Of a stretch of DNA of 64,000 nucleotides, positions 33,444 through 63,657 are shown piece after piece. The translations under genes and the position numbers were made by a program. The DNA lies in the NCBI GenBank assembly GCA_000002445.1, contig CH464491.1:704001-768000 (forward strand), read 5' to 3'. Numbering within the stretch: the first letter of the stretch is position 1; every line of letters begins with the position of its first letter. The stretch comes from Trypanosoma brucei. Its lineage: Eukaryota. The notes under the pieces were generated by a model. The model did no database searches and was not told the origin of the DNA. It saw nothing but the letters and a program-made list of their open reading frames with translations.

Positions 33444-34467
33444 CTGCGATACGATTCAAAAAAAAAAAGGGAACGAGTTGCAACAGCAATGTTCCAGTAT
33501 TCAGGAGTGTACACAGATACCCCAAAGTTTCCTTCTTTCCCTTGAAGCTTCCTTATATTATTCGCCTACGAGTAGACAAAAGAAGAAATTACAAAAGCAG
33601 TGATGCGGTGTAAGGTAAGGAACGACACGAAGCAAAAAAAAAAAAACGTTCAAGGTTAACATAAACAGCCCCGTTGAAACACCAATATTTCCTTGCACAC
33701 GCGGTTCACCCCTCCGCACTCCACGATTTCGTTTTCACCTGAACATTTATACGCTGATACAAACACAAGAACGCGGTACTCTTTTAGCAACGAACAAATA
33801 AAAATTGAAAAGTAAAGTGCACAAAAGGCTCCACCCGAACCAGTAGCGTATGCCACTTCCTGAAGGTGCTACAGCTTTCCAATGATTCGCAAAGTAACAA
33901 TGAAGAAGAGGGAGCAAACAGAAGAAAAAGGTGCTCACAAGTTGTCTCCTCAAGACATTCGTTTACAAGTAACAATGTTTGGAGCGCTCTCCCACAAGCG
34001 CAAATAGGCGAAGCGGCAGCAAAAATGGAACTCCATGTTTCAAAATAATTAAGAAATACAAACATAAGAACCTTCACGAACAGTCGTCCACTGACACATA
34101 CATATACATTCACATCGACAAAAGTGAAACATACAGCCATTTATAGTAAATTTCAACACAAAAGAAAATGTTATAGCCCCTAAACCGAGTCAAGTATACC
34201 CTCCCCCGGCGTGACAATTTTTTTCTGGTTGGAGGGAGGGTTATGACCGTGAGTGAACTCAGCACCAGATTGGAGGCACCGTTGTTGCTTTGCGCAACCG
34301 AGCTTCTTAGAATAGTACGGAGGAAGGGAAATAACAAAAAAAAACACTCTTTCGAAACGTACACGCAAATAAAGGAAAAAAAACGAGCAAACGAATAATA
34401 TATACGTGTATAATTCTAATATATATATATATATATATTCATTTTTTATGCGCAACAAGCTGCAACT

Positions 34468-37400
34468 TCAGCTTAATCGTGGAACAGCCCGCTGAGCTCT
34501 ACGCTTAGTGGTTCGCTCACTAACGACTGTTCGTGTTCCCGGGGAAAGGTTACCACTACGCTGACTAAAGAGGACTTTTGGAGATGCTAGGGAGAATCGA
34601 CCACGTAGGGTCGTTGCTAGGGACCCCAACCCCAGAGCAGAGGGAGACTGCAGATCCTTATCTTCCATTACTGAGCGACTAGATCTGGACGCACTCCATG
34701 GGCCGCTCCTTCTTATAGAAGACCTTGGGGTTATTATGAGGTGAGACTGATTCTGCTTTTGCATCACGATGTTAGCCTTCCGTACCGTCCTTTCAAAAGC
34801 GGTACTCAGCATGTACTCGTCAGTGCTTCGAAGAATAGGGCCGGCAACTTCGAAATTGTCTTTGTCCTTGGGGGTTTCCTGTTCCTCCGCACAACCACGA
34901 CCACTAACAACAGAGCCGTCATACACCTCTTTATTATGATGCTTTTTGACTACATTGTCAGTGTAAGTTAAGTCGTTTCGTTCAACGGCTTGCCGCAAAC
35001 CTTTATTACACGCCCTTTCCCCAATTTCATACATCTCGCTCAACATGGGTCTCGCACACGTCGCTACGTGCATCAACATATTCCCGATTAGAAGGTTAAG
35101 GGACCACATGGAAGGATGCTCATTACTTGGCGGTAGTGGGAAGCCACTAGGGTTAACGGTGTTGTGCCGCATCAACTGCACGGCTGCTGGGGGTAAGAGT
35201 CCAGCAGCCGTTATCATTTTTTGCGCCTCCCTCGGAAGCACATCGCTTCCGCGTCCACTTCTGCTTGACGAAGGACATGACCTCACCTCATCTGGCGAGC
35301 TTTCCTCAACCATATACCGTGAAAAGAATACTATATCCGCCAGAGGAACCAATTTCACTTCTGGTATTGCGCACGCGTAGTCCTTCAGCATTCCCTGTTT
35401 CTCCAAGGCGGTCATAATATGCAGTGTCCGTCTCGCGTAACCGTAACGCAACATATCGAATGCAGGTACGGAAGAAGGTGAAGCACCTTCTTCCAATATC
35501 TGGGCTAGAGACCGTGCCGGTGCCGTGTTATTGGGGTGAACAACATAATGCAGATTAATATGAAGTTTCAGAGATTCTTGTGCACCGTGCAAGAGTTCCC
35601 TGGGCGACTTGTGGGGCAACGTCACCGCACCAAGTCTGACATAATGAAATCCTTTACTTGTGTCAGCAGTGAAATCGCTCGAGAGGAGATACCCACCGTG
35701 AGCATCGCCCGTCGGATCAATCTGGAACAACATCGCTTCATAAAACCATTTCCAAACGTTGCTGTCACAATCCGTCAACAAACTGGCCTCATCAGCCGCG
35801 TTGATTTCACTAACCGTGCCGATTGGTACTGGAATGTCCACGAACCGCATCGTGGAGGTAGTGGGATAGCCATCTCTGACACTACCATTTTCTGGAGACG
35901 TGGACTCCCGCTTTCCCAATCCCATTGCTTTTCCATCTTTCACGAGACTCAGAAAGCATTGAAGAACGGAGCTCAACTCCTTCACATGCATATGCACATC
36001 GGCGTCATCAGAACCATGTTCCAGGAGGAACAGAGGAAGAACTCTGGCAATATCGATATGGCTTTCAAGTATGACAGTACTTGGCCAGCGACCCCGTACA
36101 ATCTGTATGCACGTATATCGCAACGCTAGGTAAGACCATCGTCGATACGTGGTTGAGTCAATTGAGTAACCACCTTCCTGATCTGTACCGTCACAAACTA
36201 ACTTTATAAGTTTTATGAAGGAGCGGCAGACCTCCTCCACATGCCGGGGCAGCCGACCCGGTTGAAATTGACCAGAGTGAGAGAATTCCAGGCGGCAGCC
36301 AATGATGTCAGGATTCATCACTGGAGGAGAGCTACAACCAGACTGCCTTGAAATGGTTTCCCCATTACCTCTCTGGTTAACGTTCATCTGAAGTATTATA
36401 TCATGACTGCTGATACCACTGCGGTAATTTACCCAACCGTCGTAATCACGGAGGAGGTCTGTCGCCACTTTTACATGCCTACTCAACATCTCCATATCAT
36501 CGACCACACACTTGTATACAACCAACGCCGCTATGCGACTCCTTCTCCGCTTCTTCTCCAATTCAACCTTAAGACAACTTCCCTCCTGGCGACTATGTAT
36601 ACTTCCCAGAAGCCTTGTGATGAGGTTCTGCTCCTGCTTCAAAGTTTTCATCGCGGCTTCGGTGAGACACCACACGTCCCGTGTATCAGAACAGCTTGGT
36701 GCACAAGAAACCGCCTTTGAAGGTGAGACGTTGCGCGCCGAGTCGATATCCCCGGCTTGCTGCTCTGTGGATCCACAAGACTGTAAAGTGCTGCACATGT
36801 GCATGGCGTGATGTAACAACTGTAGTGCGTGTTCGGATTGATCGTAGAACTCCTGATACAAATACCTCTCCTCCAAAGTTAGAAATGAATTTGAGCACGC
36901 TGTGACAGCAGAAATTGTAAGCCGTTTCCGGTATGTTCGGGCCGCGGAAGCCATGCGGCGCCTCTCGAACTCGATCACATCATCACGATCTTGCTCCAAT
37001 GTGTAAACCGCCTCTGCAAAGGTCATGCGTGCCACAGCCTTCCGTATTTCTCTTTCGCCTGGCACACCAAACTCTGACAGTACATACTCTAATTGATCAC
37101 GCACTTCTCGCAGACAACTCAGAGAGTGTGAGGTTATCCAGCGAGTGTACCACCGCATCACCGATATGTCCCACGAAACATCAGCGAAACACGTATCACT
37201 CCCAGCAACCTCCATGAACAACCTCAATTTTTCATCCTTTCTCCAGCGATCCTCCGAAATGGCTAAAGAATCTGCCCCATCCTCTCTTGAAGTTAGGGAG
37301 GACTCTTCACAAAACGGAGCAATGAATCCTTGCTCATCTTCAATGTCCCGAAACTTACTTTCCAGGGCGTACACCTCGTCCTGTAGCACTGCCACTGCCT

Positions 37401-37713
37401 TCTCTACGTCATATGGTATAGGAGTTTGGTACATAGATGGGGCACTCTCACAGACAATAAATGGGAAGGTGGGTAACTTCAGCACATTGAGTGACTTGGC
37501 GTCCAGTGTGCGATCCAAAGGATCAGTATATGACACAGCTGCTTCCGATGAGGCATCAGGGTTTTCGTGAGTGTTGCGCAACTCCTGTCGTAGAAGTTTC
37601 AGTACTCGCAGCTCCTCCAACACTTTGGGTGGTACCAGAGAGATAGTTGTTTCCCTCTCTGCAAGAGACTCTGACGTGATGCTTCCTTTTTTGGAGGAAA
37701 AGGATGTTGACAT
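34468..37713 (-). CDS. Conserved hypothetical protein of 1081 aa
   Basis: A long uninterrupted ORF of complex composition on the same strand as its neighbours. ATG start confirmed. No motif was recognised. Confidence 0.6.
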   Translation of the reverse strand: MSTSFSSKKGSITSESLAERETTISLVPPKVLEELRVLKLLRQELRNTHENPDASSEAAVSYTDPLDRTLDAKSLNVLKLPTFPFIVCESAPSMYQTPIPYDVEKAVAVLQDEVYALESKFRDIEDEQGFIAPFCEESSLTSREDGADSLAISEDRWRKDEKLRLFMEVAGSDTCFADVSWDISVMRWYTRWITSHSLSCLREVRDQLEYVLSEFGVPGEREIRKAVARMTFAEAVYTLEQDRDDVIEFERRRMASAARTYRKRLTISAVTACSNSFLTLEERYLYQEFYDQSEHALQLLHHAMHMCSTLQSCGSTEQQAGDIDSARNVSPSKAVSCAPSCSDTRDVWCLTEAAMKTLKQEQNLITRLLGSIHSRQEGSCLKVELEKKRRRSRIAALVVYKCVVDDMEMLSRHVKVATDLLRDYDGWVNYRSGISSHDIILQMNVNQRGNGETISRQSGCSSPPVMNPDIIGCRLEFSHSGQFQPGRLPRHVEEVCRSFIKLIKLVCDGTDQEGGYSIDSTTYRRWSYLALRYTCIQIVRGRWPSTVILESHIDIARVLPLFLLEHGSDDADVHMHVKELSSVLQCFLSLVKDGKAMGLGKRESTSPENGSVRDGYPTTSTMRFVDIPVPIGTVSEINAADEASLLTDCDSNVWKWFYEAMLFQIDPTGDAHGGYLLSSDFTADTSKGFHYVRLGAVTLPHKSPRELLHGAQESLKLHINLHYVVHPNNTAPARSLAQILEEGASPSSVPAFDMLRYGYARRTLHIMTALEKQGMLKDYACAIPEVKLVPLADIVFFSRYMVEESSPDEVRSCPSSSRSGRGSDVLPREAQKMITAAGLLPPAAVQLMRHNTVNPSGFPLPPSNEHPSMWSLNLLIGNMLMHVATCARPMLSEMYEIGERACNKGLRQAVERNDLTYTDNVVKKHHNKEVYDGSVVSGRGCAEEQETPKDKDNFEVAGPILRSTDEYMLSTAFERTVRKANIVMQKQNQSHLIITPRSSIRRSGPWSASRSSRSVMEDKDLQSPSALGLGSLATTLRGRFSLASPKVLFSQRSGNLSPGTRTVVSERTTKRRAQRAVPRLS

Positions 37714-38408
37714 TTCCCCCCCTTTTCTTCTCAGTTGTATGGTTCAGATATAAGGCGTCTATCTCCCTCTATATATTTTTTCTCCTTATAGTTGTATATC
37801 CGAAACTTGCGTGCTTGCTTTCCGATACGACTCAAATGCACAGACGTGCACCCTATTGACAAACGCTGATGCGACAGTGTTAATAAATTTATTGTACCTC
37901 TTTCCACGGCCGCCGCGTTCCCGTCTACCCCTTGTGTGCACGCCGGCAGGGTAATGAAGTGAACGCCTATCCCTGTGTCCACTGCCCGTAATGAAGGCAC
38001 ACGTTAATGATACCCTCTTGGGTTCCTTACGCTTCTACTATTTGCGCTGCTTCACAATTTTATGAACCAGGTTGTAAAACAAGCTGCAGAAGGTGGTATC
38101 TTAGATATTATTCCTTGGGGTGTTGGATCAGTCACCAACAGCAGCAGAAGCTACAGGTACACAGTTAAAACGAATGCGCACAAACAACGTTAAAACTGAG
38201 GAATGAATCAAACACAGTGCGCAACGTGCCACTTCACACGTCACACGCACCGCCAACATTTGTTCCTCTTTCCCCCTCCCTGTTGTCACTCTCCTCCCAC
38301 CACTTCTTTTATTCACCTGAGGCGTTTCTTTGACGGCGGTCACATCAACCCCCGCTGCTCGTAAGACATTCCTATTTTTCCCCTCTCTTTCCTTTCATTT
38401 GTTTTCTA

Positions 38409-41189
38409 TCACTTAAATACCACTCCACTACCACCGCGTCCCGCTCCCCTGCCGGTGCCTCTTCTTCCCCGACGACTATCGCTGCCCCGTCCACCACCGA
38501 TCCTATCGATACCGTATCGGCTGGTTCCTCCGCGGCGCTGCCCCATTAAGGGGGTCCGCTGACTGTAGTTGTCATCTAGCACGCCACCACTATCTCCTGT
38601 AAGAACTGATTCCCTTCCGCGAGCGGCAAAGGGTGGGAATCCTTGTTGGGTTATGGGAAAAGGTGGTTGCGGCTGCGGTAATTGTAGAACTGCAGGTGCA
38701 GGGTGAGAAAGAACAGCGCCACCCCCTCCCTCACCAACAGGAATGGGAAGAATCCCCTCACTCGGCACTGCCGGTTTCCTAGGCGTTGGCATTGAGGTAG
38801 TTGTTTCATTCTTTTGTGTGTGGCGTTGTTTCCAGGGCTGATGCCACGGTTGCTTTGGTTGGTTTTGCATGACGCTTACCCCTTGCGTTGACTGCTGTAT
38901 TTCTTGTGTCTGCCGCGGCTGCTGTTGACTAACCGCCGCCACCGGCGCCTGTGGACTTTCCTTGGCACTTACCTTCTGTAACGATTGTGGCGCTTGAGCT
39001 GCCCGCTGCCGGGCAGCGTTCTGTGTGCTCCTCTCCAGCGAGTCAAGAAGGGAATGAACACGTGCCCGGTCTTCGGCTGAAAGTTGAGATGCACGCTGCG
39101 GTGGCGTTACGTTCTCTCTGTGGAGCAACGCATTTGACGAGCATTCCGCACTGAATTGTTGCCACAGTTGGTCCATTGCAGCGCCAATTGCTGGTGGATA
39201 CAACAACTCGGGAGCTGCCTCCGCATCTCGCTGAAAGTTTTGCCGGTATAAATCGGTGAACTTTTGCAGTTCTTCCAAAGTACACTCGACGGCAGACTGG
39301 GAATCCGCTTCAGCTTCCGCAGAAGCTAGTATATAACGTCGACCGGCGTCGTAGGCAGCCTTCCAATCTTTATTCCTTTGCCCATTAACGGCTGAGGCGG
39401 GTCCAACTGTCGCCCTGCAAGTGCGAGGGGCCGCAGTGGAACCAGTTGCCTGTAGTTCAGCGGGATCAGACCCGGCCCCCGAAGCTGCGGCATTCACAAA
39501 AGAAGACACTCGAAAATAACTGTTCCAAAAAGAGTTGCCACCAAAAAGGGGAACCTGGTGTTGACCTGAGCACCCGCTGGAAGTAACCGTTCTACCTTCC
39601 TCACTGCTTCCATGGGTTCCTTCCCCGCAGCGGCGACTTGATTGTAACTTCTGCAAAAAATCCTCGACTATTGGCTCCGCAGGAGGTGGAAGTGCGGAAC
39701 GCAGAGCAACTGGGAACGGATTTTTCGCATATGTCTCCCCCAGTTTAAACTCAGTGTACACACTCACACGCCAGCACTCCATAAGGTTAACTACTTCGTG
39801 GAGCTTAAAACACATTAATAGCACCACCGTCGAATTCGTGGCACCCACAGTGAATATAAGATCTGTAGAACATGCCTTTGCAGCATCATCTTTCAGTACA
39901 GAGGTGAGGAAAAGCTCCCTCCACGGGCATGACTCGTGATGACCGCTGTGTTCGGCCCGTTCGCTCCAACGGATGGTACATTGGGTGCGCACGCGACCAC
40001 TTTCACCTTCATTATTATCACAACTCATTGAATCAACATTTTGCACACCCTTACCGCTTTCATTTCCATTCAGTGTCGAGTACACCACTGGTGGTCTCCC
40101 ACCGCAAAATCGACAAAAGATATCGACACCAAGTGCGGCTAAGAGGGATTCTTCCACATCTTCTCCGACACCCTTGCTAGCCTCATTACCCTCACTACCA
40201 CCACTACATCTGCTAGCAGCATCAGAGGAGGGAACCTCAGTTACAGTGTAGCCAAACAAGGTAATGAGTAAACTGACATGGGGCACAAGATCGATGTTGC
40301 CATTCCTCGTTTCGGGGTTCTCGTCACTCCTGTTGTTACCACTCGAATCCGCCTCGAGACTGCGTTTCTTCTTTATCCCGAACAACGTGCACAACAGCCC
40401 CTCTGGTGTAGTGCTGCTGAGTGCACTCGCCTGATTTGTTATCAACGACCGCAACCACTTCATCACACGCTGCAGCATATTTTCCCGAATAAAGGACGGG
40501 GGAGTTCCTCTCGGAAGTAGTAGCTTATTCCCCTGGGGGAGGTTATTGGGGGATGTGTCCGAACCGGCCAAGTTGCCGAGTGCGCTGTTAGAGAGAGCAG
40601 TACTGCTGGTATCACAACTACCGCTAGCAGCAGTTGACAGCGTTTTTAGAGAGACAGCGCTGCAGCGGTGCCGAATGAGAGAAGAGTTTGTCCATGAGAG
40701 GCTTGGGGATGACAATGCGTGCCTGGCAACCTCACCAAGTCGCCACCAGCAAGACGGTGAATGAAGCTCTGACATCAGTTTTTCAATAATATTCTCACTC
40801 ACCTCACACGTAGCTGCACCGGCTGAAGCGACGCTTTGTATGTTCGCACCGACGGTTTCGCCTTCCATACATTTCGCTACTGAAGTTGAGGCACAAGACC
40901 GGGAGCGAAGGAACTGTAAAAGCCGAACCCAGTCGCTCGTTAGCATCAACCGCGACCTCGAACAGCAGGATGTGCAAATCTGAAGCGCCACCTCGCCTTC
41001 TTCATCCCCCCAACCTGCTGCTTCGTTGTTTTCACCTCTGTCAAGTGTAATAGGCTCGACACCACAAGGAGTGATGTTCATGGCTGAGAGCAGAAAAATT
41101 GTCTCTTCATCACCACCGATGAATGCCCGAGCCAACACATTACGCCGCCAGGTGCTAACTGAGGCAAATAGATTTTCAGTAATAAGCAT
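38409..41189 (-). CDS. Hypothetical protein of 926 aa with a Gln/Pro-rich region and a C-terminal RGG/GR-rich tail
   Basis: ATG start confirmed. The C-terminal 120 aa contain QPWHQPWKQRH followed by RRGGTSRYGIDRIGGGRGSDSRRGRRGTGRGAGRGGSG, which looks like an RGG box. The N-terminal two thirds are a complex globular sequence. Confidence 0.6.
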   Translation of the reverse strand: MLITENLFASVSTWRRNVLARAFIGGDEETIFLLSAMNITPCGVEPITLDRGENNEAAGWGDEEGEVALQICTSCCSRSRLMLTSDWVRLLQFLRSRSCASTSVAKCMEGETVGANIQSVASAGAATCEVSENIIEKLMSELHSPSCWWRLGEVARHALSSPSLSWTNSSLIRHRCSAVSLKTLSTAASGSCDTSSTALSNSALGNLAGSDTSPNNLPQGNKLLLPRGTPPSFIRENMLQRVMKWLRSLITNQASALSSTTPEGLLCTLFGIKKKRSLEADSSGNNRSDENPETRNGNIDLVPHVSLLITLFGYTVTEVPSSDAASRCSGGSEGNEASKGVGEDVEESLLAALGVDIFCRFCGGRPPVVYSTLNGNESGKGVQNVDSMSCDNNEGESGRVRTQCTIRWSERAEHSGHHESCPWRELFLTSVLKDDAAKACSTDLIFTVGATNSTVVLLMCFKLHEVVNLMECWRVSVYTEFKLGETYAKNPFPVALRSALPPPAEPIVEDFLQKLQSSRRCGEGTHGSSEEGRTVTSSGCSGQHQVPLFGGNSFWNSYFRVSSFVNAAASGAGSDPAELQATGSTAAPRTCRATVGPASAVNGQRNKDWKAAYDAGRRYILASAEAEADSQSAVECTLEELQKFTDLYRQNFQRDAEAAPELLYPPAIGAAMDQLWQQFSAECSSNALLHRENVTPPQRASQLSAEDRARVHSLLDSLERSTQNAARQRAAQAPQSLQKVSAKESPQAPVAAVSQQQPRQTQEIQQSTQGVSVMQNQPKQPWHQPWKQRHTQKNETTTSMPTPRKPAVPSEGILPIPVGEGGGGAVLSHPAPAVLQLPQPQPPFPITQQGFPPFAARGRESVLTGDSGGVLDDNYSQRTPLMGQRRGGTSRYGIDRIGGGRGSDSRRGRRGTGRGAGRGGSGVVFK

Positions 41190-42318
41190 CTAATTTAAAT
41201 CAAAACAAACGTAAAGTCGCTGTGTGGCAACGGCCTTGTGTCGCCCAATATTTTAGATCAACACGCATGCAAAGTTCTAAAAGCCGAAGAGCAAACAGCG
41301 AGCTCCACTAAGTCACAGAGGGGCGAAAAAAAATACACAAAAAAAGGAGAAAAAAGAGAGAGCGACATTCATAAGATAAAGGCACCAACTTTCGTTTCAC
41401 ATGTTAGGCGCACCTGCTCAAAGGGGAACTGATGGCAGGATGCACCCGAAGCCCTCATCCCTAGACACATGCACAAACAATCATGATTACAGAAAAAGAG
41501 AAGAGACACGAGCACAGAAAAATCCTCTCCTTGTTACTCTTGCTCTTTTACTCACTTTTTTTTGGGCCCTCCCCGGATAAAAAACGGTTATTCTCTTTCG
41601 TACATTCCTTCATACAAGTAAACATGGAGACACAAATATAATAGTTTATATATAAATCCCGTCCTGCTCCTCTCTCGTTACAGACTTCATTCACTGAACA
41701 TTAATAACTTTGAAAAGCGTAATCACTTGACGGATCACACTTTGGGTTTTTTTCCTCATTCCTTTTCATTTCCCTTACCCATCTGTTGAGTTCAGTGATG
41801 AACTCGACAAGGAGGCTAAACGGGAAGCACCGAAGTCAAGAAAGAAACCCCTCCAAAAAAGAAATGAAAAAAAATGTGGCACACGAAATGGGTTGCTGTG
41901 CATGCGTGGTGGCGCCCCATTGAGGTAAAGTTACGAGAGGAAAAAGCGTGTACCCTTTTTTCAACGTGTTCACACACACACACTCTTCGCTCGTCTCAGA
42001 TTAACTTCAATTCACAATTATGGTTTCCTTCACTCATCTTCCTACACCATGTATAACTACAGCCCACCTGATATATCTCAACCTCAACTGTCGAACCCCT
42101 TCACCTTTAGCATACAACCAAGCACGAAAAAACACACGCACAGCATTTCCCAAGGTATTCCACCTGATTTTCAAGCTTTCACCTCGTACCGGTTACACTT
42201 TCCCCCATTTCTTCAGAGATAGGGGCGGGGAGTGCTGACTGTCCTTGTCCGGAAAGAGTTACTAAGCAGTATCATCTTAGGGACGCAGACGCGGCACTCT
42301 CACCTGCGACCACGTCTT

Positions 42319-43704
42319 CTACGACGTGCGTTCGACTTGGGTGGCGGCACCGTTTTCGTTTTTGGAAGTTTCCTCTCCACCTGCGCCGTTTTCTCCGGTT
42401 GCAGCCGCTTCAGGCTCCTTCACATTTTCTTGACCTTCAGTGACTTGCGCTCCTTGTGGTTTTTCGACTGCGGCTTCGCCTCCCTGGGCTGCTTCTCCCT
42501 CCTTTGGGGCCTCTCCTCCCTGAGCTGCTTCTCCCTCCTTTGGGGCCTCTCCTCCCTGAGCTGCTTCTCCCTCCTTTGGGGCCTCTCCTCCCTGAGCTGC
42601 TTCTCCCTCTTTCGGAGCTTCTCCTTCTGCTGCTGCTTCTCCCTCTTTCGGAGCTTCTCCTTCTGCCGCTGCTTCTCCCTCGGCAGGCTCCTCTGCCTTC
42701 TTCGTGGGTCTCTTAACCCGCCTTATCCTTCGCACCTTTTTGACTTCCTTCTTCTCTTCAGGATTCTCGCTGTAGAACTCATCAATTTGGTCAAAAGCGA
42801 TTTCAGCAACCCTTCTCCTGTAGCTGTTGTCGTACCTGCTGGCGAGGCGGTCAACAGCATCGTCCGTTTCCTCATTGCCGAAGTGCTCCACGTTCAGCTG
42901 CCCCAGGAGTGTTTGTGCATTGGTTGTTAGTGCGGCATTGGTTACGTTCAACCGCTGGCAAATGCTGGCATCGCGTTTGTTTGCGAGCTCCATGCTTCGG
43001 ATGTTTATCTTTAGTTTGGTGATTTCTTTCTCCGTACGCTGCTTTTCCTCCCTCACCTGCATCTGAAGCTCCTTCCGTACTTTCCGCAACTCACGTACAC
43101 GTAGAACCAACTCTGTGTTATTGATTTTGGCTTCATCAGTGTACGCCAGGGTGTCTCTCAGCTCGTCTGGTACTTCCTGTGTCTGGGCGCGCGTGAAGCG
43201 GGTACCGGCCAGTGGCTCCCCGCGGATGATGCGGGGTCCATTACGGATCTCACGCGCACACCTTGCCGTACGCTGCCGGAGTGCCTCGATGCTGCGGTGC
43301 TCTCCCTCGAGTGTCTTCTGCAGCTCAACACCGTAGGCTGCAATTTCCTCTTTACTGTGAATTTTATCCGCAGCAGCCAGGTTCTCCATCTCGGCGGGCA
43401 GTTCATCAACCACGTACGCCGCGGCGCGCTGTGCAAATCCCTCCAACCGCTGTACACGGGCGGCAAGTGGGTACACGAGGTGAGCCCCGTGCTGTTCCTC
43501 AACCTCCTGCTTAACGTCGCTGCATGATTCCCGGAGTTCCGTGGTGGTTTGCATCAAACGGAGACGTTCCAGGTGCAGTTCATCCAGATGCGGTAGGTTC
43601 TCATCACCACCAGCTCGAAGCAGGGCATTGATGCGGCTCTGAAGCCTTGCGCGTCGGGCGTCAAGTTGGTTTTGGAGCTCTTCAATTGTAACAGCGGCTG
43701 CCAT
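42319..43704 (-). CDS. Coiled-coil protein with C-terminal acidic tandem dodecapeptide repeats (EGEAAQGGEAPK)
   Basis: The track ORF starts at a GTG at 43788; the first ATG at 43702..43704 gives MAAAVTIEELQNQL. The N-terminal 300 aa have heptad-like helical character. The C-terminus contains about six 36-bp tandem repeat units at 42471..42690. Confidence 0.6.
   Translation of the reverse strand: MAAAVTIEELQNQLDARRARLQSRINALLRAGGDENLPHLDELHLERLRLMQTTTELRESCSDVKQEVEEQHGAHLVYPLAARVQRLEGFAQRAAAYVVDELPAEMENLAAADKIHSKEEIAAYGVELQKTLEGEHRSIEALRQRTARCAREIRNGPRIIRGEPLAGTRFTRAQTQEVPDELRDTLAYTDEAKINNTELVLRVRELRKVRKELQMQVREEKQRTEKEITKLKINIRSMELANKRDASICQRLNVTNAALTTNAQTLLGQLNVEHFGNEETDDAVDRLASRYDNSYRRRVAEIAFDQIDEFYSENPEEKKEVKKVRRIRRVKRPTKKAEEPAEGEAAAEGEAPKEGEAAAEGEAPKEGEAAQGGEAPKEGEAAQGGEAPKEGEAAQGGEAPKEGEAAQGGEAAVEKPQGAQVTEGQENVKEPEAAATGENGAGGEETSKNENGAATQVERTS
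42471..42690 (-). repeat. In-frame 36-bp tandem repeat of about six units, encoding EGEAA(A/Q)(E/G)GEAPK
   Basis: On the + strand the unit ctgcttctccctcctttggggcctctcctccctgag repeats three times perfectly, followed by variant units such as ctgcttctccctctttcggagcttctccttctgc(t/c)g. Confidence 0.85.
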
Positions 43705-45362
43705 AACGATCACTGTATGATTACAATCAATAGGACAACAAGCAATCAGGGTATCAACAATAATAAGAAGTGTATATTGCAAGCACACGCAACTGTTTGA
43801 TGCTATCGATGCGTGTCCGCTTTACTTATGATCCTTCACTTGATCTTCCTAGTTACTGGTACAAATAAGTTTATATTCGTGTATTCCTCAGTTCCTTAAC
43901 CTTCCCCTATTACGCCGTTTTGAGTTACTTGCTTGTAAGTAATGCGGTGAAACTTTAGTTTCGAATTATCTGGGGCACAACGCGTGCAAAAAGATATTGA
44001 GTGAAGATCGAAATACCAAAAAGAAAAGACGGTATATTTGGATGAGTTGAATGTACGTGCATGGGGGGGGGGGAGCTGTGTACATAAGTTAGGGAAGTGG
44101 GAAGCCGGGGAAAAAAGAAGTGTTAGCGTTTGATGATTTTAAAGATTATATAAGTAAATATTTGTATTTGCATACGCATATATTGTTGTTGAAACCGTCG
44201 AGCAACAAGCGATCCCATACGAAAAAGAAAAAGGATAGAAGCCGTCAGTCTTTGCTAGGTAGTACCATCCTTTTACCTTTTACCTCCAACCTCTCTTTCC
44301 TCGATTGCATAACCTGTCACTTGTGAACTGTTCACCCGTGTATAACATGTTTTAAAATATTTTTGCATTTTGCGTCGCGCGCAACTTCTCTCACTCCCCG
44401 CCCCAATCACCGACGACTCAACAGGGTAAGGAAGGAAAGGGTAGCTGCGAACACAAACAAAACGAAAAGGAACTAAGGAACGTTTCGCCGCCTAAATGAG
44501 TATTGTACCTAAACACGCATATATATATGTCCAACTTTGTCTGCTCTTCTCTTTAAAAATGGAAAAAAAGAACAAGAAAGTGATACACATACTCTCCTCT
44601 CGCATTCACTGCTTTCCTTCTCCCTGCGGTATCTCATAGTGCAGCACACTTCTGCAAAATCACGTTATCCTTACCTGTTTCCTTCTTTTTTTTTTTTAAA
44701 AAAAAAGAAAAAAACACTTTTCCTTCCCGCTCCCCACCACTCCAATGTTCCCATATTATTTTATACATTTACACGTTACGATTCATATTTGAGGCTGTGA
44801 AAAAAATATATCCACACGGATTACTACACGTGCACATATTTACATGTGTACAAACACACATCTGCGCGTATTTATTTTTTTATGTGTAAAGGCACAATTA
44901 CAATCACATACCAGCAATATCAGTCGCAGATATATTTACCACATTTTGTTTCAATCACGTCACAAACGGCAGCACCGATTCTCAATTGTATGAGACACAA
45001 AAGGAAACGGTTGGAGTGAACAGTAGCAATAATGGTGGCAACAACAATTAACTGTGAAAAAGGAAACTGCGGGGACGTCGGAGTGTCAAATGTTAATAAA
45101 AGAAGAGAGTATCAAACTTTAAGAAGAGTTTTAAAGATCCACTAACAGAAATATGCACAGACAGCGGACGGAAGAATAGAAGAGAAAAAAAAAGACGCGA
45201 AGTTTGCGTGCATCACAGTCTGTAAAGGAAAACAGAGCTACCGGGAAATATTTGAAGGGGTCCTCGCCTACTTGTAATAATGCATGCCAGAGCACCCGCA
45301 TCTTCAACCTCACTCTCCTTAGGTGAAAAAACACAAGTGAGAAGAAGCCCGTTCCCCTTTCA

Positions 45363-45387
45363 ACACACACACACACACACACACACA
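45363..45387. repeat. (AC)n microsatellite
   Basis: A (ac)12 run lies immediately 3' of the HAD-like gene. Confidence 0.9.
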
Positions 45388-45432
45388 AACATAAAATTAC
45401 CCACTAATCTTCAAATGAGGTAAATTTCCGCT

Positions 45433-47298
45433 CTATAAGTGAGCCATACTCGGGTTCATGACCGCAGCTGCCTGAGTTGCAGCTAACGGCACCGCCTCAG
45501 CAAAAGTTGAGCGCTCCAGGGGTTTCAGCTTCTGTTGGGAGTCGTCACGATTGGGAAAACCGGGTGGTACACCCAAGATATCCATTAAGCGATCGAGGAA
45601 TACAGCAGTGCCATCTTCCTCACCACCCACGTAATAAATGTTTTTGACACGACGATCATCCATCAACATCCCACGCGGCTGAGGTTCATTCTCGTCGCCG
45701 TTTGTGTTAACAACATGACACTCGGGTGCTTCATGGTTGCTATCTGCACGAGTGCAGCGTGCATCAATATATGTGTGTCGGTCCCTCCGCTGTTTTGCCT
45801 TTTCAAGTGAGATGAACCGAAGTCCAGGATGAACCGTCAGCTCATAGTCTGCCGTGTGCGGGTTATCACCCAGTGCTATGGCCTGCGTGAGATCCACAAC
45901 GCCACACAAGCCCGCTTGCATATTTTGTTGTTGTTCTGATTCATCTGTAAGGTAGCGGACGGTGGTGGACTTACAAATTCCTAGCTTCCCAAAAGCGACG
46001 CTGTTTGGTTGTGGGATGGCTGTTACGCCTACAGCAGCAAAGTAACGCTGCATCGGTTCGAAGTAAAGAGGAAATATTTTCATCGGAACCCCGAGGGCAA
46101 GCACTTGAGTGATACTCTCTTTCGATTGCTGACAAAACAGTGCATTATACATACGATTAGCGAATGCCGCCACAGCATTTCTACCACTCGAAAACGTCTT
46201 CGGTATGGTAGCACCCAGTAAATCCATGACTTTCCGCACAACAATGCACGCCGCATCTGAGTCATCGTTAAACATTTGCTTTGCGTATTCCCTTAACTGA
46301 CGGCGCTTTACTTTTTCTATATCAGATGCCTTGGCTCCACCTACCACTGACAGTGTTTCAGCTAGTGGCGCTATCTCTGCGTCCGCAACCTCAACGTGAA
46401 TAAAACCAAACATTACAAACATTTGCTTGTGCTTTCGCACGAAACTGCACTTCCACTCCGCCTCAGCAGTAGTTGCCGCCTTCCCAACATGGTTCCTTCC
46501 CGCTCGAGACTGAACCCTCGCACCCGAGTCAGCACGACCTTTTTGCTGTAACCGGTACCGCCTGTCAATGTAATCGAACACGAGACGCCACACGTTTTGG
46601 TACCGAGACGACAGTCCCAAAAAGGCGGAATGAACCCCCTTTTTCTCACCACGAATCAAATCTTCCACAAGTTCCAGGTACGTTTTCTCCAAGCGCGCGA
46701 TCAATGCACTACACCCCTGGGCAAAGCAGGTTCCTCGCACATATTCTATGTTCGTCACGTGCTTTTCTCCTTTCGAGTCCACACGTGTCGTGGTACCCTG
46801 GTCTAACTTGACGCCGTACACCTTTGCAAGTCTCCTTGAATCCTCTGTTGCGCGATGCAAAGCCTCAGTGTATCCAGGGACAAAGGAGATACCCTGCCGA
46901 CTGCAACGATATAAAACTGCACCCGTATTTAGTGAAAGGAGCAGCTGCCCACAGTAGCGGTTTGTTGCAATACTTTTGCCATCATTTTGACCGCTAACAG
47001 AACCATTTCCAGTATTACTAGGGCTCTCGCCGTCACTCTCAACACTTTCACCGCAGCTATCACTTGAATTCACACAGTACTTGTCTCTAAGGATTTCACG
47101 CAGTGGGACGTACAGCTGCTGGACAACACGTTTGTTCGCTGTAGTGATAACGCACAAATTCCCGCCGTTAGCGAGCCATCGCTTTACTGGAATTATGCAC
47201 GGACTTTCACTAAGTGTAAGATACTCTCCACGTGCCTTATGGGGCGTCGCTACAATTGTGCCATCGAAATCTGCAAGTAACCAACAGTTTTGAAGCAT
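45433..47298 (-). CDS. HAD-superfamily hydrolase-like protein of 621 aa
   Basis: The N-terminus LLADFDGTIV is a canonical HAD motif I (DxDGT). VITTA may be motif II. GDNPHTAD near residue 455 fits motif IV (GDxxxD). Large insertions separate the motifs. ATG start confirmed. Confidence 0.5.
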   Translation of the reverse strand: MLQNCWLLADFDGTIVATPHKARGEYLTLSESPCIIPVKRWLANGGNLCVITTANKRVVQQLYVPLREILRDKYCVNSSDSCGESVESDGESPSNTGNGSVSGQNDGKSIATNRYCGQLLLSLNTGAVLYRCSRQGISFVPGYTEALHRATEDSRRLAKVYGVKLDQGTTTRVDSKGEKHVTNIEYVRGTCFAQGCSALIARLEKTYLELVEDLIRGEKKGVHSAFLGLSSRYQNVWRLVFDYIDRRYRLQQKGRADSGARVQSRAGRNHVGKAATTAEAEWKCSFVRKHKQMFVMFGFIHVEVADAEIAPLAETLSVVGGAKASDIEKVKRRQLREYAKQMFNDDSDAACIVVRKVMDLLGATIPKTFSSGRNAVAAFANRMYNALFCQQSKESITQVLALGVPMKIFPLYFEPMQRYFAAVGVTAIPQPNSVAFGKLGICKSTTVRYLTDESEQQQNMQAGLCGVVDLTQAIALGDNPHTADYELTVHPGLRFISLEKAKQRRDRHTYIDARCTRADSNHEAPECHVVNTNGDENEPQPRGMLMDDRRVKNIYYVGGEEDGTAVFLDRLMDILGVPPGFPNRDDSQQKLKPLERSTFAEAVPLAATQAAAVMNPSMAHL

Positions 47299-48039
47299 TT
47301 CTAAAAATAGTAACTGCCTCCTAATATAGAAAGTAGAGAGGTATATATGTTTCCCCGTTATCCTACCTCTCTCCCTTTTTCTGTAGTTACTTTCTCTTCC
47401 TCTCTTTTTTTTTTCGCAACGATTTTAAAAAAGTAGCGCCTCACTCCTTTTTGTGCTCAACTTATGGTGGTGTTATCTGCTGGAAGATCAAGTGGAAATG
47501 TATTGACACGAATGTCTATATTTCCGTGGTACAATCTGGCACTACTTTGCTACACGCCCTATCTATACTTTTTCTGTGAGGAACTACGCGCCAAAACTTG
47601 GAACCAAGCAAAAAAAAAAATGCTCGAAGAAAGTTCATGCAAAAGCATACACACACGTACATCTAAAAAAAAAAAAAGCAGAAAGCGGTCTTACCCAGAC
47701 GTTACACAAACTCCCAACGAGTCACACATAGGGACAAAGGGAGTATATTAAAGTATAAGAAAATTAAAGCTGTGAAGTAGGATACAGTGGTAACTTGGCT
47801 TCAATTGTTAACACGTGTTTCGTGCGGTATTTCCCCTAGCACAACCCAGACTTCAAATTACTCGTCGCATATTATCCACTTGTGTACCAAGGAGACAAAA
47901 AATAATAATAATAATAATAATAATTGCATGACTATCGGCTCGGTTTCCCCACCCACATGTTTTTTTCCAAGGGTGTTCAGGTTTACACAACAACGCGATG
48001 CCGAAAACGGACACCAGTGCGAACAGTTACTCCGTTAAA

Positions 48040-50013
48040 TCATTGTTCCTTTTCTGTTGCATATCCACGCGCAATGCCATGTCGACCCTTTTCAATTTGC
48101 GTTTGCACCGGCGTCTGTCCAGTCCGCGGTTCCAAACCGACGTATGTGCGCTGATATAATCGGTCCAACGCGCTACCGCCACCATCATGCGTCATGACAG
48201 TCCCTGCCATTGTGCGTATGAGTGTTGTGCAGTCCCCCCGCAGCTCTTCCTTTCGTTTCTGTGATCCGGTGGCCTCCTCCACCTCGTTGCGGAGAAGAGG
48301 GAGAATCGAGTCGAAGGTCGTGCTAAAAACGGCGGGGTGGCCGTACAGTGGTGAATCAACATCTTCAGCACGAAGGGCAAGCAAAACCTCGACTGGGGAA
48401 ACGATAGGTTTTGGGAAACCATCTTTTTTTTCTGGAAAGTGACCTTCGCGACTGTTGGGGCATGCGATGGTCACAAAACAATCAACTGTGTCTACAAAGT
48501 TTGCGATCTTAAATTCGTTTAGATGGCCAATATAAATGATGTAGGAACGCTTGCCGTGCGCACGAAGCAGCTTGTGTAGCAACATTGTTGTCTCGTAATA
48601 CCCCGCTATGGACAACGAGGCCACAACTATCCCCACAGCAGAGGTAGCTCGAATAAGTTCAATGTTGAAAGCACGTTGTTTCGAGCGTTTATCCACCACC
48701 ATCTGCAGTTTAGCATAACCTGCATTGCGAAAACAAGTGTCACCGCTGAAAATGTCAGCAGCAATAGAATGACCATCGCCGGAGGAACAGGTGCTGAGCA
48801 CAGTCTCCAAAGTGGCATCATCAATATCACCGCGAGCTGTATCATTCAGTGGTGAGAGGAGATTGCCCCCGTCCCCAGTGAGGCCGAACGATTCATCCAT
48901 TATTATTAATGCGGGAGGAGATTCGTTGGCCTCAAACGCTACCTCACGAAGCTCTTGTGAGTAGTGGTAGAGGTTGTGTTGGTGAACATTGAGAATATGT
49001 AACGGTAGAAAGGCACTTGATGGACCGACGAACAAGAAGTACTGCAGCTCCTTTGTTCCAGCACGAGGGAACCGGACACCATTAATCACCCACGAACTAC
49101 ACTCCCCAGATGATGGGCTCCAGCTATGCGGGATGGCCGCATGAACATTAACTACCGATCCCGATGTCGAAGGTTGCTCCGGATTTGTTGTCGACTGAAC
49201 CAACTCGTAGCTGCACCACGAAACAGAAGACCCGTCAATCAATGTCACAAAATCGGGGACCGGTGTACCCGCTTGATGTCGTTCCCGCCAGCGCCGTTCG
49301 GCATCTTCCACAACATTACGCGAACGATGGCAGCCAACAACAACCAGGTTGACAGTAGCCTCGGCATCCTTCTCCCTCACTAGCGAACGAACGCGGCCAA
49401 CCAAGTATTTTTGCAGTAGCTCCACTGCTCCCAAAACCAGCCGTGCTGATAAATCTTTTTGACGCACCTGCTCTTCCTGTTGTTGAGTCACTTGTCTAGC
49501 AGTCGCAGTGAATTGAAAAGACTCCTGCACGTAGAAGACAGGGATCCTGGTAGAGCGGCTCATGCATGATTCGCCAAAGTGTATAAGACAGTCGCTGCAG
49601 TAATGCTGCGCCGTAATCTCGTCTGGACAGCACGACCCGAAGGTGTTATCTGCTACAACAAAAAAACGGATTCTGCCATCATTGTTGCTGCAGCAGCAAT
49701 CCTCTCCAACATCAGGTGATGGGGTGACACCATAAACACCTCCCACACAACGGGGATCGGATAAAAGAATGCCTTTTAGCGTTTCCACAACAGCGACGGC
49801 ATCGTCCAACAGGTCGTCCGGAAATTGCAGTGCCACCCGAAGAAATGGGCTTGCCAGTGCTTGCGTTGAAGTGGAGGAAGACAAGGAGCTTCCTGTGAGG
49901 ATAAACGACGCCACGCTATCCAGTTTGTATTGACTGCGTATTCCTTCACGGGGTTTAGGCTGCCGCCGACACATTACGGTGGCAACCGGCTTCGGCGGAG
50001 CATCGTGGTACAT
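48040..50013 (-). CDS. DPH2: Diphthamide biosynthesis protein, DPH2-like (DPH1/DPH2 family)
   Basis: VALQFPDDLL near the N-terminus and CLIHFGESCMS match the IHYGHACL motif of the family. The C-terminal KIANFVDTVDCFVTIACPNS is typical of the diphthamide synthase fold. The first codon in the track is GTG; the first ATG is at 50011..50013. Confidence 0.7.
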   Translation of the reverse strand: MYHDAPPKPVATVMCRRQPKPREGIRSQYKLDSVASFILTGSSLSSSTSTQALASPFLRVALQFPDDLLDDAVAVVETLKGILLSDPRCVGGVYGVTPSPDVGEDCCCSNNDGRIRFFVVADNTFGSCCPDEITAQHYCSDCLIHFGESCMSRSTRIPVFYVQESFQFTATARQVTQQQEEQVRQKDLSARLVLGAVELLQKYLVGRVRSLVREKDAEATVNLVVVGCHRSRNVVEDAERRWRERHQAGTPVPDFVTLIDGSSVSWCSYELVQSTTNPEQPSTSGSVVNVHAAIPHSWSPSSGECSSWVINGVRFPRAGTKELQYFLFVGPSSAFLPLHILNVHQHNLYHYSQELREVAFEANESPPALIIMDESFGLTGDGGNLLSPLNDTARGDIDDATLETVLSTCSSGDGHSIAADIFSGDTCFRNAGYAKLQMVVDKRSKQRAFNIELIRATSAVGIVVASLSIAGYYETTMLLHKLLRAHGKRSYIIYIGHLNEFKIANFVDTVDCFVTIACPNSREGHFPEKKDGFPKPIVSPVEVLLALRAEDVDSPLYGHPAVFSTTFDSILPLLRNEVEEATGSQKRKEELRGDCTTLIRTMAGTVMTHDGGGSALDRLYQRTYVGLEPRTGQTPVQTQIEKGRHGIARGYATEKEQ

Positions 50014-50606
50014 TGTCACCCCGCTTCCCACAGTCGCCTATTCCTGTCCCCTTACTAACTTTCTTCCTCCGGATTGATCCCTTTCCCCCTATATTGCGGG
50101 GTGGGGTGATGGGGCTTCAGCACTTGGCGCTGGCTGTTGTAGTAGCAGTTATTGAGTGGTGTATCAAGTTGTATGAGTTTTGAAAGGGGGGAGGAAATTA
50201 AGAAAGTTAAGGTGACGCCAGTTTGTAAAACGCTAAGCACAATTAACCAGGGTATCACAAGGGGGGAGGGGGGAAATATCCAGAAAGTTTCCGCTTCGCC
50301 GGGGAGAACACCTGAGGACACTTCTTGTTTTAATCGTTACACTTATAACTTTGGCGATACGGGGGAGGGGGTGGCGAAAGTGCGAGTGAACACGGGAAGA
50401 CGCGTCAGATTGGTAAGCGATTTAGTACGTCGTTTTCCTCCTTCCACGTTCATTCACCTATGGGACTCCTGCGCACCTGTTACAGGAGAGAAGAAGTGGG
50501 ACACGACGTGTTAAGAAGGACAGAAATCAAAGGGAAGTGTAGAGACGAAGGATCGCGTATCCGTGTCACTCTTTGTGAAGGTGTCATTTCCCCGACCACT
50601 CTTCAC

Positions 50607-63487: not shown

Positions 63488-63657
63488 ATCGCACGAAACG
63501 GAGGATGAACTGAAAAATAGATAGAGAGAGAGAACGAAAGAGAGAGAGAAAGAAAAAGAGAAGTAAAGGTCACTAAAAAAAAAAAAAAATAGAGCAAGTT
63601 CATAAAACAAACTCAATTGGGTTACGTGCTCATACGCCTTTCCCCCTCCCCCCCCAA

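What the first reader, a model, noticed from the sequence alone, without database searches (positions are those of the whole stretch)
42471..42690. In-frame 36-bp tandem repeat encoding an acidic EGEAAQGGEAPK dodecapeptide array
About six tandem 36-bp units sit inside the C-terminus of the coiled-coil protein 42319..43704. Three central copies are perfect and the flanking units diverge slightly (AAAEGEAPK versus AAQGGEAPK). This looks like recent expansion or gene conversion. Trypanosomatid proteins with short acidic tandem repeats are often immunodominant antigens, or cytoskeletal or flagellar components, and their copy number is often length-polymorphic between strains. A collapsed copy number in the assembly is also possible.
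Basis: seen in the sequence. Interest (0 to 1): 0.5.

Follow-up and report, generated by a model that had tools for sequence, protein, structure and literature searches.

The report
Acidic repeat tail of CAP50
The 36-bp repeat is real, but it is the published acidic, disordered C-terminal repeat of the Trypanosoma brucei cytoskeleton protein CAP50/KHAP1; the one thing added here is that public genomes show it varies in copy number and unit length between strains.

Summary
Six in-frame 36-nt units lie on the minus strand at 42466..42681: two A units, three identical B units and one degenerate terminal C unit. They sit in the ORF 42319..43704.

The ORF is T. brucei TREU927 Tb927.11.2610, known as CAP50 or TbKHAP1. 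It is an essential protein of the subpellicular microtubule corset that is needed for cytokinesis. Schock et al. 2021 already described "six imperfect repeats of twelve amino acids" in its acidic, disordered C-terminus. They showed that a construct lacking this region (aa 1-308) still binds the cytoskeleton.

New here:
- Four public T. brucei-group assemblies carry 6, 6, 4 and 4 units, of 33, 36 or 42 nt, always in frame. The other 389 codons differ by one amino acid (K415Q).
- TREU927 and T. equiperdum OVI have identical non-repeat coding sequence but differ by two units.
- The array is seen only in the T. brucei group. T. vivax has an acidic tail without repeats. Most other trypanosomatid orthologues have basic tails.

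The cytoskeletal and length-polymorphism ideas are supported. I found no evidence for the antigen idea. The most likely role is a sequence-tolerant polyanionic disordered projection, expanded by slippage or unequal recombination. Novelty: already known. Interest: low.

The parts
42319..43704 (-). CAP50 / TbKHAP1 coding sequence (Tb927.11.2610), 461 aa plus the stop codon at 42319-42321
   Evidence: 100% identical to XP_828344.1 / EAN79232.1 / UniProt Q386P9. Computed mass is 50,887 Da and pI 5.10, against the published 50.9 kDa and pI 5.1. Eight published CAP50 primers map inside it.
42775..43704 (-). N-terminal all-helical domain (aa 1-310); it carries the cytoskeleton-targeting activity
   Evidence: AlphaFold2 predicts helices 2-31, 40-70, 74-154, 180-275 and 281-310, mostly with pLDDT above 90. 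The domain is conserved across kinetoplastid orthologues. The published deltaC construct (aa 1-308) stays on the cytoskeleton, and deltaN (aa 154-461) is soluble (primer mapping).
42883..42951 (-). Most conserved motif of the family, LNVTNAALTTNAQTLLGQLNVEH (aa 252-274)
   Evidence: It contains the invariant or nearly invariant columns N256, Q269, N271 and H274 in the alignment of 21 family members.
42697..42753 (-). Polybasic patch KKEVKKVRRIRRVKRPTKK (aa 318-336, net charge +11), separated from the repeat array by five residues (AEEPA, aa 337-341)
   Evidence: Charge-block calculation. It lies in the low-confidence, disordered part of the model.
42646..42681 (-). Repeat unit A1 (EGEAAAEGEAPK)
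42610..42645 (-). Repeat unit A2 (EGEAAAEGEAPK), 35/36 identical to A1
42502..42609 (-). Repeat units B1-B3 (EGEAAQGGEAPK), three copies identical at 36/36. This unit type is found only in the TREU927/OVI haplotype.
42466..42501 (-). Terminal degenerate unit C (EGEAAQGGEAAV), identical in all four alleles compared
42322..42465 (-). Non-repetitive acidic distal tail (aa 414-461, net charge -6). The only difference among the four alleles is K415Q.

Best explanation
The array encodes the repetitive core of the intrinsically disordered, strongly acidic C-terminal tail of CAP50 (also called TbKHAP1, Tb927.11.2610). CAP50 is an essential, kinetoplastid-specific protein of the T. brucei subpellicular microtubule corset.

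Shown:
- The helical N-terminal domain (aa 1-308) anchors the protein to the cytoskeleton.
- The tail, including all repeats, is neither necessary nor sufficient for that anchoring.
- The array is generated and remodelled quickly. It changes by in-frame gain or loss of whole units and by 3- and 6-nt slips. Interior units are homogenised within a haplotype, while the terminal unit stays fixed.

Inferred:
- The DNA mechanism is replication slippage and/or unequal recombination in a GAR/GCN-rich, purine-biased 36-nt unit. That unit is itself a diverged dimer of an 18-nt (EGEAxx) subunit.
- The tail works through bulk properties, namely negative charge, disorder and length, rather than through a precise sequence. 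It would act as a polyanionic projection from the microtubule-bound domain.
- It most plausibly pairs electrostatically with the nearby polybasic patch (KKEVKKVRRIRRVKRPTKK) or with basic corset partners such as KHARON, CAP5.5 or the MARPs. This tolerance would explain why copy number and unit length drift freely between strains.
For: Identity:
- 100% match to XP_828344.1.
- Mass and pI match the published values.
- Published primers map to the ORF.

Published biology:
- Corset localisation, with RNAi defects in cytokinesis and morphology. DeltaC stays cytoskeletal and deltaN is soluble. No microtubule binding in HeLa cells. Six 12-aa repeats in a disordered acidic C-terminus (PMC8625193).
- Formaldehyde crosslinking to KHARON, and predicted disorder over aa 314-461 (bioRxiv 10.1101/2020.10.07.330316).
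- RNAi blocks cleavage-furrow ingression and mislocalises KLIF (PMC9117871).

Disorder:
- AlphaFold2 pLDDT is about 37 over aa 316-461, against more than 90 in the helices.

Fast turnover and tolerance:
- Arrays of 6, 6, 4 and 4 units, of 33, 36 or 42 nt, all in frame.
- Outside the array the four proteins differ by one residue (K415Q). All 7 nucleotide differences in the N-terminal 1023 nt are synonymous.
- TREU927 and OVI have zero substitutions in the non-repeat coding sequence but differ by a 75-nt deletion (the two-unit difference) in the array.
- Between haplotypes the 222-nt repeat segment carries 19 aligned differences and 5 indels (about 8.6%). The flanks differ by about 1.7% and the N-terminal domain by 0.68%.

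Lineage restriction:
- Stercorarian, Leishmania, Phytomonas and Angomonas orthologues conserve the N-terminal domain but have unrelated tails.
- T. vivax has an acidic tail that is not repetitive.

Charge blocks: +11 (aa 318-336), -17 (aa 337-413), -6 (aa 414-461).
Against: - No experiment has tested what the tail does once the protein is on the cytoskeleton. The deltaC construct was assayed only for localisation, not for rescue of the RNAi phenotype.
- Every allele preserves the reading frame, and the distal 48 residues are almost invariant. The tail is therefore not free of constraint, and a specific motif function is not excluded.
- Schock et al. report similar 12-aa acidic repeats with a shared EAAA motif in TbAIR9. 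That hints at a shared specific partner.
- Differences in copy number between assemblies could partly reflect assembly error in the short-read T. equiperdum OVI genome.
Confidence: 0.5

Rival explanations
1. The array has no function. It is a neutral slippage product tolerated in a disordered tail whose only requirement is to stay in frame.
For: Copy number and unit length vary between near-identical haplotypes. The array is absent from every orthologue outside the T. brucei group. It is dispensable for localisation.
Against: The salivarian tails of T. brucei and T. vivax are both strongly acidic (net charge -20 and -18), although their sequences cannot be aligned. That suggests selection on charge. 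All indels are in frame, and the distal tail is conserved within the T. brucei group.
Confidence: 0.25
2. Each dodecapeptide is a short linear binding motif, and the array is a multivalent docking platform for a specific corset partner. The partner could be shared with TbAIR9, which carries similar C-terminal repeats.
For: Schock et al. report five similar 12-aa acidic repeats with a common EAAA motif in TbAIR9. CAP50 (Tb11.02.0210), CAP42 and a leucine-rich-repeat hypothetical protein, Tb11.01.8770 (TbAIR9's former gene ID as I recall it; the paper does not name it), were co-enriched in one pull-down (PMC3282761). The EGEA...GEAPK core is kept in all unit variants.
Against: Unit length varies from 11 to 14 residues, and the middle of the unit changes between alleles (AAAEGEGEAPK, AAAGEAPK, AAQGGEAPK). 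The motif is absent from T. vivax and all other orthologues of an essential, conserved protein. I could not obtain the TbAIR9 sequence, so the similarity was not tested here.
Confidence: 0.15
3. The array is an immunodominant tandem-repeat B-cell epitope, acting as an antigen or immune decoy as in other trypanosomatid tandem-repeat proteins.
For: It is an in-frame, hydrophilic tandem repeat in an abundant protein (emPAI 78 in bloodstream forms, PMC11236118). Other repetitive corset proteins such as MARP and I/6 are known antigens. That last point rests on established knowledge and is cited only as repetitive proteins.
Against: No paper in the searched library reports seroreactivity of this protein. 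The array is only 72 aa long, with a TRF score of 283. The protein is intracellular.
Confidence: 0.05
4. The array, or its copy number, is an assembly artefact.
For: Repeats can collapse in assemblies. The OVI genome is fragmented (contig of 110 kb).
Against: The array is present in four independent assemblies. It spans only 216 bp. It was independently described from the TriTrypDB sequence and cloned by PCR.
Confidence: 0.02

Closest known systems
CAP50 (Tb927.11.2610), also called TbKHAP1, of Trypanosoma brucei (Schock, Schmidt & Ersfeld 2021, PMC8625193; Landfear-lab preprint 10.1101/2020.10.07.330316; PMC9117871)
   Same: It is the same gene. The sequence is 100% identical. Mass (50.9 kDa) and pI (5.1) match. 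The published primers map to the ORF. The six roughly 12-aa acidic repeats in a disordered C-terminus are as published.
   Different: Nothing differs in the window itself. The papers did not report allelic variation in copy number or unit length, the A/B/C unit lineages, or the restriction of the array to the T. brucei group.
L. mexicana KHAP1 (LmxM.32.2440, 502 aa) and the other kinetoplastid orthologues
   Same: They share the conserved helical N-terminal domain with the LNxxNAALTTNAQxLxxQLNVEHYG motif. They also associate with KHARON and the corset.
   Different: Their tails are basic (pI about 9-10.6) and rich in Ser/Thr. Many carry 1-3 copies of a ...KPPLVAxKxTxSQRxR... motif. None has EGEA repeats.
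C-terminal acidic 12-aa repeats of the TbAIR9-like protein
   Same: According to PMC8625193, TbAIR9 has five 12-aa repeats with a shared EAAA motif. They are acidic (pI 4.2), disordered and C-terminal, in a corset protein with a similar RNAi phenotype.
   Different: The host protein is unrelated (leucine-rich repeats plus A9 Ig-like domains). The similarity was not re-tested here, and it may be only compositional.
Repetitive corset proteins MARP-1 and MARP-2 (38-aa repeats), I/6, Gb4 and WCB
   Same: They are repetitive proteins of the same subpellicular cytoskeleton. MARP-1 and MARP-2 are also KHARON-proximal.
   Different: The MARP arrays are enormous (hundreds of kDa), and MARPs have demonstrated microtubule-binding regions. 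The CAP50 array is 72 aa long and is not needed for cytoskeletal association.

Membership tests
CAP50 / KHAP1 (kinetoplastid-specific corset protein family) | Sequence identity with Tb927.11.2610 | tested here: met
   100% identity over 461 aa to XP_828344.1. Mass 50,887 Da and pI 5.10 match the publication. Eight published primers map to the ORF.
CAP50 / KHAP1 (kinetoplastid-specific corset protein family) | Conserved helical N-terminal domain shared with the orthologues | tested here: met
   A profile of the domain finds only 21 cluster representatives among 1.84 billion proteins. Those that carry a name are all trypanosomatids. Alignment and AlphaFold2 helices.
CAP50 / KHAP1 (kinetoplastid-specific corset protein family) | Localisation to the subpellicular cytoskeleton and a requirement for cytokinesis | not testable with these tools
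   Taken from the literature: PMC8625193, PMC9117871, PMC4551316.
Trypanosomatid tandem-repeat B-cell antigens | In-frame tandem repeat in an expressed protein | tested here: met
Trypanosomatid tandem-repeat B-cell antigens | Recognition by sera of infected hosts | not testable with these tools
   No report was found in the searched literature.
Microtubule-binding repeat proteins (MARP-like) | The repeat region mediates binding to microtubules or the cytoskeleton | tested here: not met
   Published truncations, which I mapped onto the window. DeltaC (aa 1-308, no repeats) stays in the cytoskeletal pellet. DeltaN (aa 154-461, all repeats) is soluble. GFP-CAP50 does not decorate HeLa microtubules.
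DUF4201 / CCDC113-CCDC96 coiled-coil (the label on the UniRef entry) | Match to the Pfam model | tested here: not met
   No such hit at E <= 1 in CAP50 or in any of the 21 family members. The profile finds no CCDC96 or CCDC113 chain in the PDB.
OSM3-like kinesin (the label on stercorarian orthologues) | Kinesin motor domain | tested here: not met
   No kinesin motor family appears among the 25 most frequently matched Pfam families for the 21 members (40 families matched in all; the rest were not shown). The proteins are 320-500 aa long and all-helical.

The most novel reading that the evidence does not exclude
The acidic tail may be an innovation of salivarian trypanosomes that replaced an ancestral basic, Ser/Arg-rich tail carrying the PPLVAxKxTxSQRxR motif. 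Tail pI would have moved from about 10 to about 4.3. In the T. brucei group this tail was then amplified into an EGEA-type array. The array might act as a mimic of the acidic tubulin C-terminal tail, or as an electrostatic partner of the nearby polybasic patch. Copy number would then tune corset mechanics or cleavage-furrow ingression between strains.
Probability: 0.1. Interest if true: 0.45.

Novelty: already known. Interest (0 to 1): 0.15.

Why it matters
The finding matters little as a discovery. Both the protein and its six 12-aa repeats are published, and the repeats are dispensable for cytoskeletal targeting.

The modest additions are:
- The array is the most variable segment of an otherwise strongly constrained essential gene.
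- It could serve as a small in-frame, minisatellite-like marker that separates T. brucei-group haplotypes.
- The tail of this protein family shows a lineage-specific charge inversion. This could guide experiments on what the CAP50/KHAP1 tail does at the corset.

Tried and rejected
1. Pfam on CAP50 and on all 21 family members gave no significant family. The database labels "DUF4201" and "OSM3-like kinesin" were not reproduced.
2. Sequence and profile searches of the PDB gave only a low-complexity hit to an eS6 extension and a marginal Cdc15 F-BAR hit at E = 0.18. Foldseek of the AlphaFold2 model against the PDB gave 0 hits.
3. The first homologue search, with the full-length protein, was swamped by low-complexity candidates. 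Repeating it with the N-terminal domain alone recovered more orthologues.
4. A search for a T. congolense orthologue, to date the origin of the array, found none in the collection even with a T. brucei + T. vivax profile. The origin can only be placed after the split between T. vivax and T. brucei.
5. BLASTP of the T. brucei tail against the T. vivax tail found nothing significant (E >= 5). The shared acidity is compositional and is not demonstrable homology.
6. The similarity to the TbAIR9 repeats could not be re-tested. The sequence could not be obtained with the remaining tools, and the published figure is held only as a legend.
7. Literature searches for antigenicity, using the new and old gene IDs and general terms, found nothing relevant.
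8. The plus-strand ORFs across the array (42232..42930 and 42456..42716) are shadow ORFs of the low-complexity sequence. All real genes in the 29.8-55.4 kb stretch examined are on the minus strand.
9. The mass of 51,038 Da listed for this gene in PMC11236118 matches none of the four alleles. I did not pursue this.

Full report
**1. Observation**

Tandem Repeats Finder reports a period-36 array at 42472..42681 with 5.8 copies, 93% matches and a score of 283. It also reports a weaker nested 18-nt period. It is by far the strongest tandem repeat in the 64-kb window.

The array lies in a minus-strand ORF, 42319..43704 (ATG at 43704, stop at 42319-42321, 461 aa). Read in frame, the units are as follows:

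| Unit | Coordinates | Peptide | Identity |
|---|---|---|---|
| A1 | 42646-42681 | EGEAAAEGEAPK | reference for A |
| A2 | 42610-42645 | EGEAAAEGEAPK | 35/36 to A1 |
| B1-B3 | 42502-42609 | EGEAAQGGEAPK | 36/36 among the three |
| C | 42466-42501 | EGEAAQGGEAAV | 29/36 to B |

A and B units share 27/36 positions. Self-identity at lag 36 is 0.906. In 10,000 codon shuffles it was 0.466 +/- 0.032, with a maximum of 0.594 (z = 13.7). The only missing detail is the strand.

**2. What the gene is**

The protein is 100% identical to T. brucei brucei TREU927 XP_828344.1 / EAN79232.1 / Q386P9, on a 5.26-Mb chromosome. A literature search on neighbouring gene IDs led to Tb927.11.2610, named CAP50. Three results confirm the identity:
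- The computed mass is 50,887 Da and the pI is 5.10. The published values are 50.9 kDa and pI 5.1.
- Eight published CAP50 primers (ORF, deltaC, deltaN, RNAi and qPCR) all map inside the ORF.
- The gene order fits. An HSP90-family gene, a GTPase, a diphthamide-synthesis gene and one unknown gene lie on the same strand as CAP50, at higher window coordinates.

**3. What is already published**

*Schock, Schmidt & Ersfeld 2021 (PMC8625193).*
- They found CAP50 by CAP5.5-BioID.
- It decorates the subpellicular corset and is excluded from the flagellum.
- RNAi causes defects in cytokinesis and morphology and local disorder of the microtubule array.
- CAP5.5 becomes easier to extract with salt after CAP50 depletion.
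- GFP-CAP50 does not bind HeLa microtubules.
[quoted passage not shown] They describe the region as acidic (pI 4.6), predicted to be disordered, and similar to five repeats in TbAIR9.
- Their deltaC construct stays cytoskeletal and their deltaN construct is soluble.

Mapping their primers shows that deltaC is aa 1-308, which removes the basic patch and every repeat. DeltaN is aa 154-461, which keeps every repeat.

*Other work.*
- The same protein is TbKHAP1. It can be formaldehyde-crosslinked to KHARON, is lethal on RNAi in bloodstream forms, is needed for flagellar targeting of a Ca2+ channel, and is predicted to be disordered over aa 314-461.
- A further study shows that CAP50 RNAi blocks cleavage-furrow ingression and mislocalises the kinesin KLIF.
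- It was scored as "CORSET" in a TbPLK BioID localisation screen.
- It is abundant in bloodstream-form proteomics.

**4. Structure and family**

AlphaFold2, run with a 21-sequence alignment, predicts five long helices (2-31, 40-70, 74-154, 180-275, 281-310), mostly with pLDDT above 90. Residues 316-461 have pLDDT of about 37, which indicates disorder.

No known fold or family was found:
- Foldseek against the PDB gave no hits.
- Sequence and profile searches of the PDB gave nothing meaningful.
- Pfam gave nothing for this protein or for any family member. The database labels "DUF4201 domain-containing" and "OSM3-like kinesin" are not supported.

An exhaustive HMMER search with a profile of the N-terminal domain found only 21 cluster representatives among 1.84 billion proteins. 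Those that carry names are all trypanosomatids:
- *Trypanosoma theileri*
- *T. vivax*
- *Porcisia*
- *Phytomonas*
- *Leishmania mexicana*
- *Angomonas*

The L. mexicana hit is 502 aa long. That is the length published for LmxKHAP1, LmxM.32.2440.

**5. Evolution of the tail**

The N-terminal domain ends in a nearly invariant motif, LNxxNAALTTNAQxLxxQLNVEHYG. Everything after it is lineage-specific:
- Most orthologues have basic, Ser/Thr-rich tails (pI about 9-10.6). Many of these carry 1-3 copies of a ...KPPLVAxKxTxSQRxR... motif.
- T. conorhini has its own NG(T/A)SQAA heptapeptide repeat.
- T. brucei and T. vivax lack the basic motif and have acidic tails, with net charge -20 and -18 and pI 4.5 and 4.2.
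- The T. vivax tail is not repetitive and does not align significantly with the T. brucei tail.
- No T. congolense orthologue could be retrieved.

The EGEA array is therefore seen only in the T. brucei group. In T. brucei the tail is built of charge blocks: a polybasic patch (aa 318-336, +11), the repeat region (aa 337-413, -17) and a distal tail (aa 414-461, -6).

**6. Polymorphism (new here)**

The 90%-identity cluster holds four T. brucei-group proteins, of 461, 462, 437 and 436 aa. Outside the array they are identical apart from K415Q.

I fetched the DNA of the other three and parsed the arrays:

| Assembly | Unit lengths (nt) | Unit types |
|---|---|---|
| TREU927 | 36-36-36-36-36-C | A A B B B C |
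| T. equiperdum OVI | 36-33-36-C | A A* B C |
| T. b. gambiense DAL972 | 42-42-33-33-33-C | A' A' a a a C |
| T. b. equiperdum IVM-t1 | 42-33-33-C | A' a a C |

- The terminal C unit is identical in all four alleles.
- The B unit occurs only in the TREU927/OVI haplotype.
- The interior units of the other haplotype are all derivatives of A. They differ from it by a 6-nt GAAGGA slip or a 3-nt deletion.
- All length changes are multiples of three.

A 4.4-kb alignment of the locus shows the following.
- DAL972 against TREU927:
  - Flanks: 26 and 24 differences per 1500 nt, about 1.7%.
  - N-terminal coding sequence: 7 differences in 1023 nt, about 0.68%, all synonymous.
  - Repeat segment: 19 aligned differences plus 5 indels in 222 nt.
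- OVI against TREU927:
  - Coding sequence: no substitution outside the array.
  - Repeat array: a 75-nt deletion.

The array is thus the fastest-changing part of a strongly constrained essential gene. It shows the classic signature of unequal exchange or slippage, with a conserved edge unit and homogenised interior units. The three perfect B copies in TREU927 are a recent expansion.

**7. Mechanism**

*Shown.* The tail is disordered and acidic. It is not needed for, and not sufficient for, attachment to the cytoskeleton. It tolerates 4-6 units of 11-14 residues.

*Inferred.* It acts through bulk charge and disorder, as a polyanionic projection from the corset-bound helical domain. It probably interacts electrostatically with the nearby polybasic patch or with basic corset partners.

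*Rivals.*
- A neutral slippage product.
- A specific multivalent docking motif shared with TbAIR9. CAP50 and CAP42 were co-enriched in one pull-down with a leucine-rich-repeat protein, Tb11.01.8770. I recall that ID as TbAIR9's former gene ID; the paper does not name it.
- An immunodominant epitope, for which I found no evidence.
- An assembly artefact, which four independent assemblies exclude.

**8. Verdict**

The feature itself is already known from the literature. The additions from this analysis are the allelic unit structure and copy-number variation, the restriction of the array to the T. brucei group, and the acidic-versus-basic tail dichotomy across the family. Interest is low.

Noticed in passing
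Alignment A4; window 42322..42774 for the T. brucei tail: There is a charge inversion of the C-terminal tail across the CAP50/KHAP1 family. Most orthologues have basic tails (pI 9-10.6), many with 1-3 copies of a conserved ...KPPLVAxKxTxSQRxR... motif. T. brucei and T. vivax lack the motif and have acidic tails (pI 4.5 and 4.2).
   Followed up: partly
P0012 (T. conorhini orthologue), tail region, alignment columns about 420-460 of A2: An independent tandem repeat, the NG(T/A)SQAA heptapeptide in about 4-5 copies, sits at the same tail position. L. mexicana, Angomonas and T. grayi duplicate a longer segment that contains PPLVA. The tail is repeat-prone in several lineages.
   Followed up: no
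Database names of P0001, P0002 and P0011-P0014: The public annotations "DUF4201 domain-containing protein" (T. brucei) and "OSM3-like kinesin, putative" (stercorarian orthologues) are not supported. No Pfam DUF4201 or kinesin motor hit was seen for any of the 21 family members.
   Followed up: yes
window 38409..41189 (-), the next gene downstream in the transcription unit: This ORF encodes 926 aa here and in T. equiperdum OVI, but the called gene is 929 aa in DAL972 and T. b. equiperdum IVM-t1. This is a second 3-aa length difference that tracks the same two haplotypes. The protein has no Pfam match.
   Followed up: no
PMC12030701 compared with bioRxiv 10.1101/2020.04.29.068445: The literature is inconsistent on naming. 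The 2025 T. cruzi Kharon paper calls the MARP-1 orthologue KHAP1 and the CAP50 orthologue KHAP2. The original L. mexicana preprint defines KHAP1 as the 502-aa LmxM.32.2440 and KHAP2 as the MARP-1 orthologue. The 502-aa L. mexicana hit to the CAP50 profile (P0021, E = 4e-55) agrees with the original.
   Followed up: partly
window 29798..55396: All ORFs of 150 aa or more that look like genes are on the minus strand, which fits one polycistronic unit. They include an HSP90-family protein (53135..55396), a GTPase of the MMR_HSR1 type (50607..52133) and a diphthamide-synthesis protein (48040..50031).
   Followed up: partly
window 42232..42930 (+) and 42456..42716 (+): These plus-strand ORFs run through the repeat and encode Leu/Pro/Ser/Phe-rich low-complexity peptides. 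They are shadow ORFs of the repeat and are not genes.
   Followed up: yes
window 50595..50637 and 63519..63561: These are the only other tandem repeats in the window with a TRF score of at least 60. One is a 21-nt unit in 2 copies at the 5' end of the GTPase ORF. The other is a GA-rich 16-nt unit in 2.7 copies.
   Followed up: no
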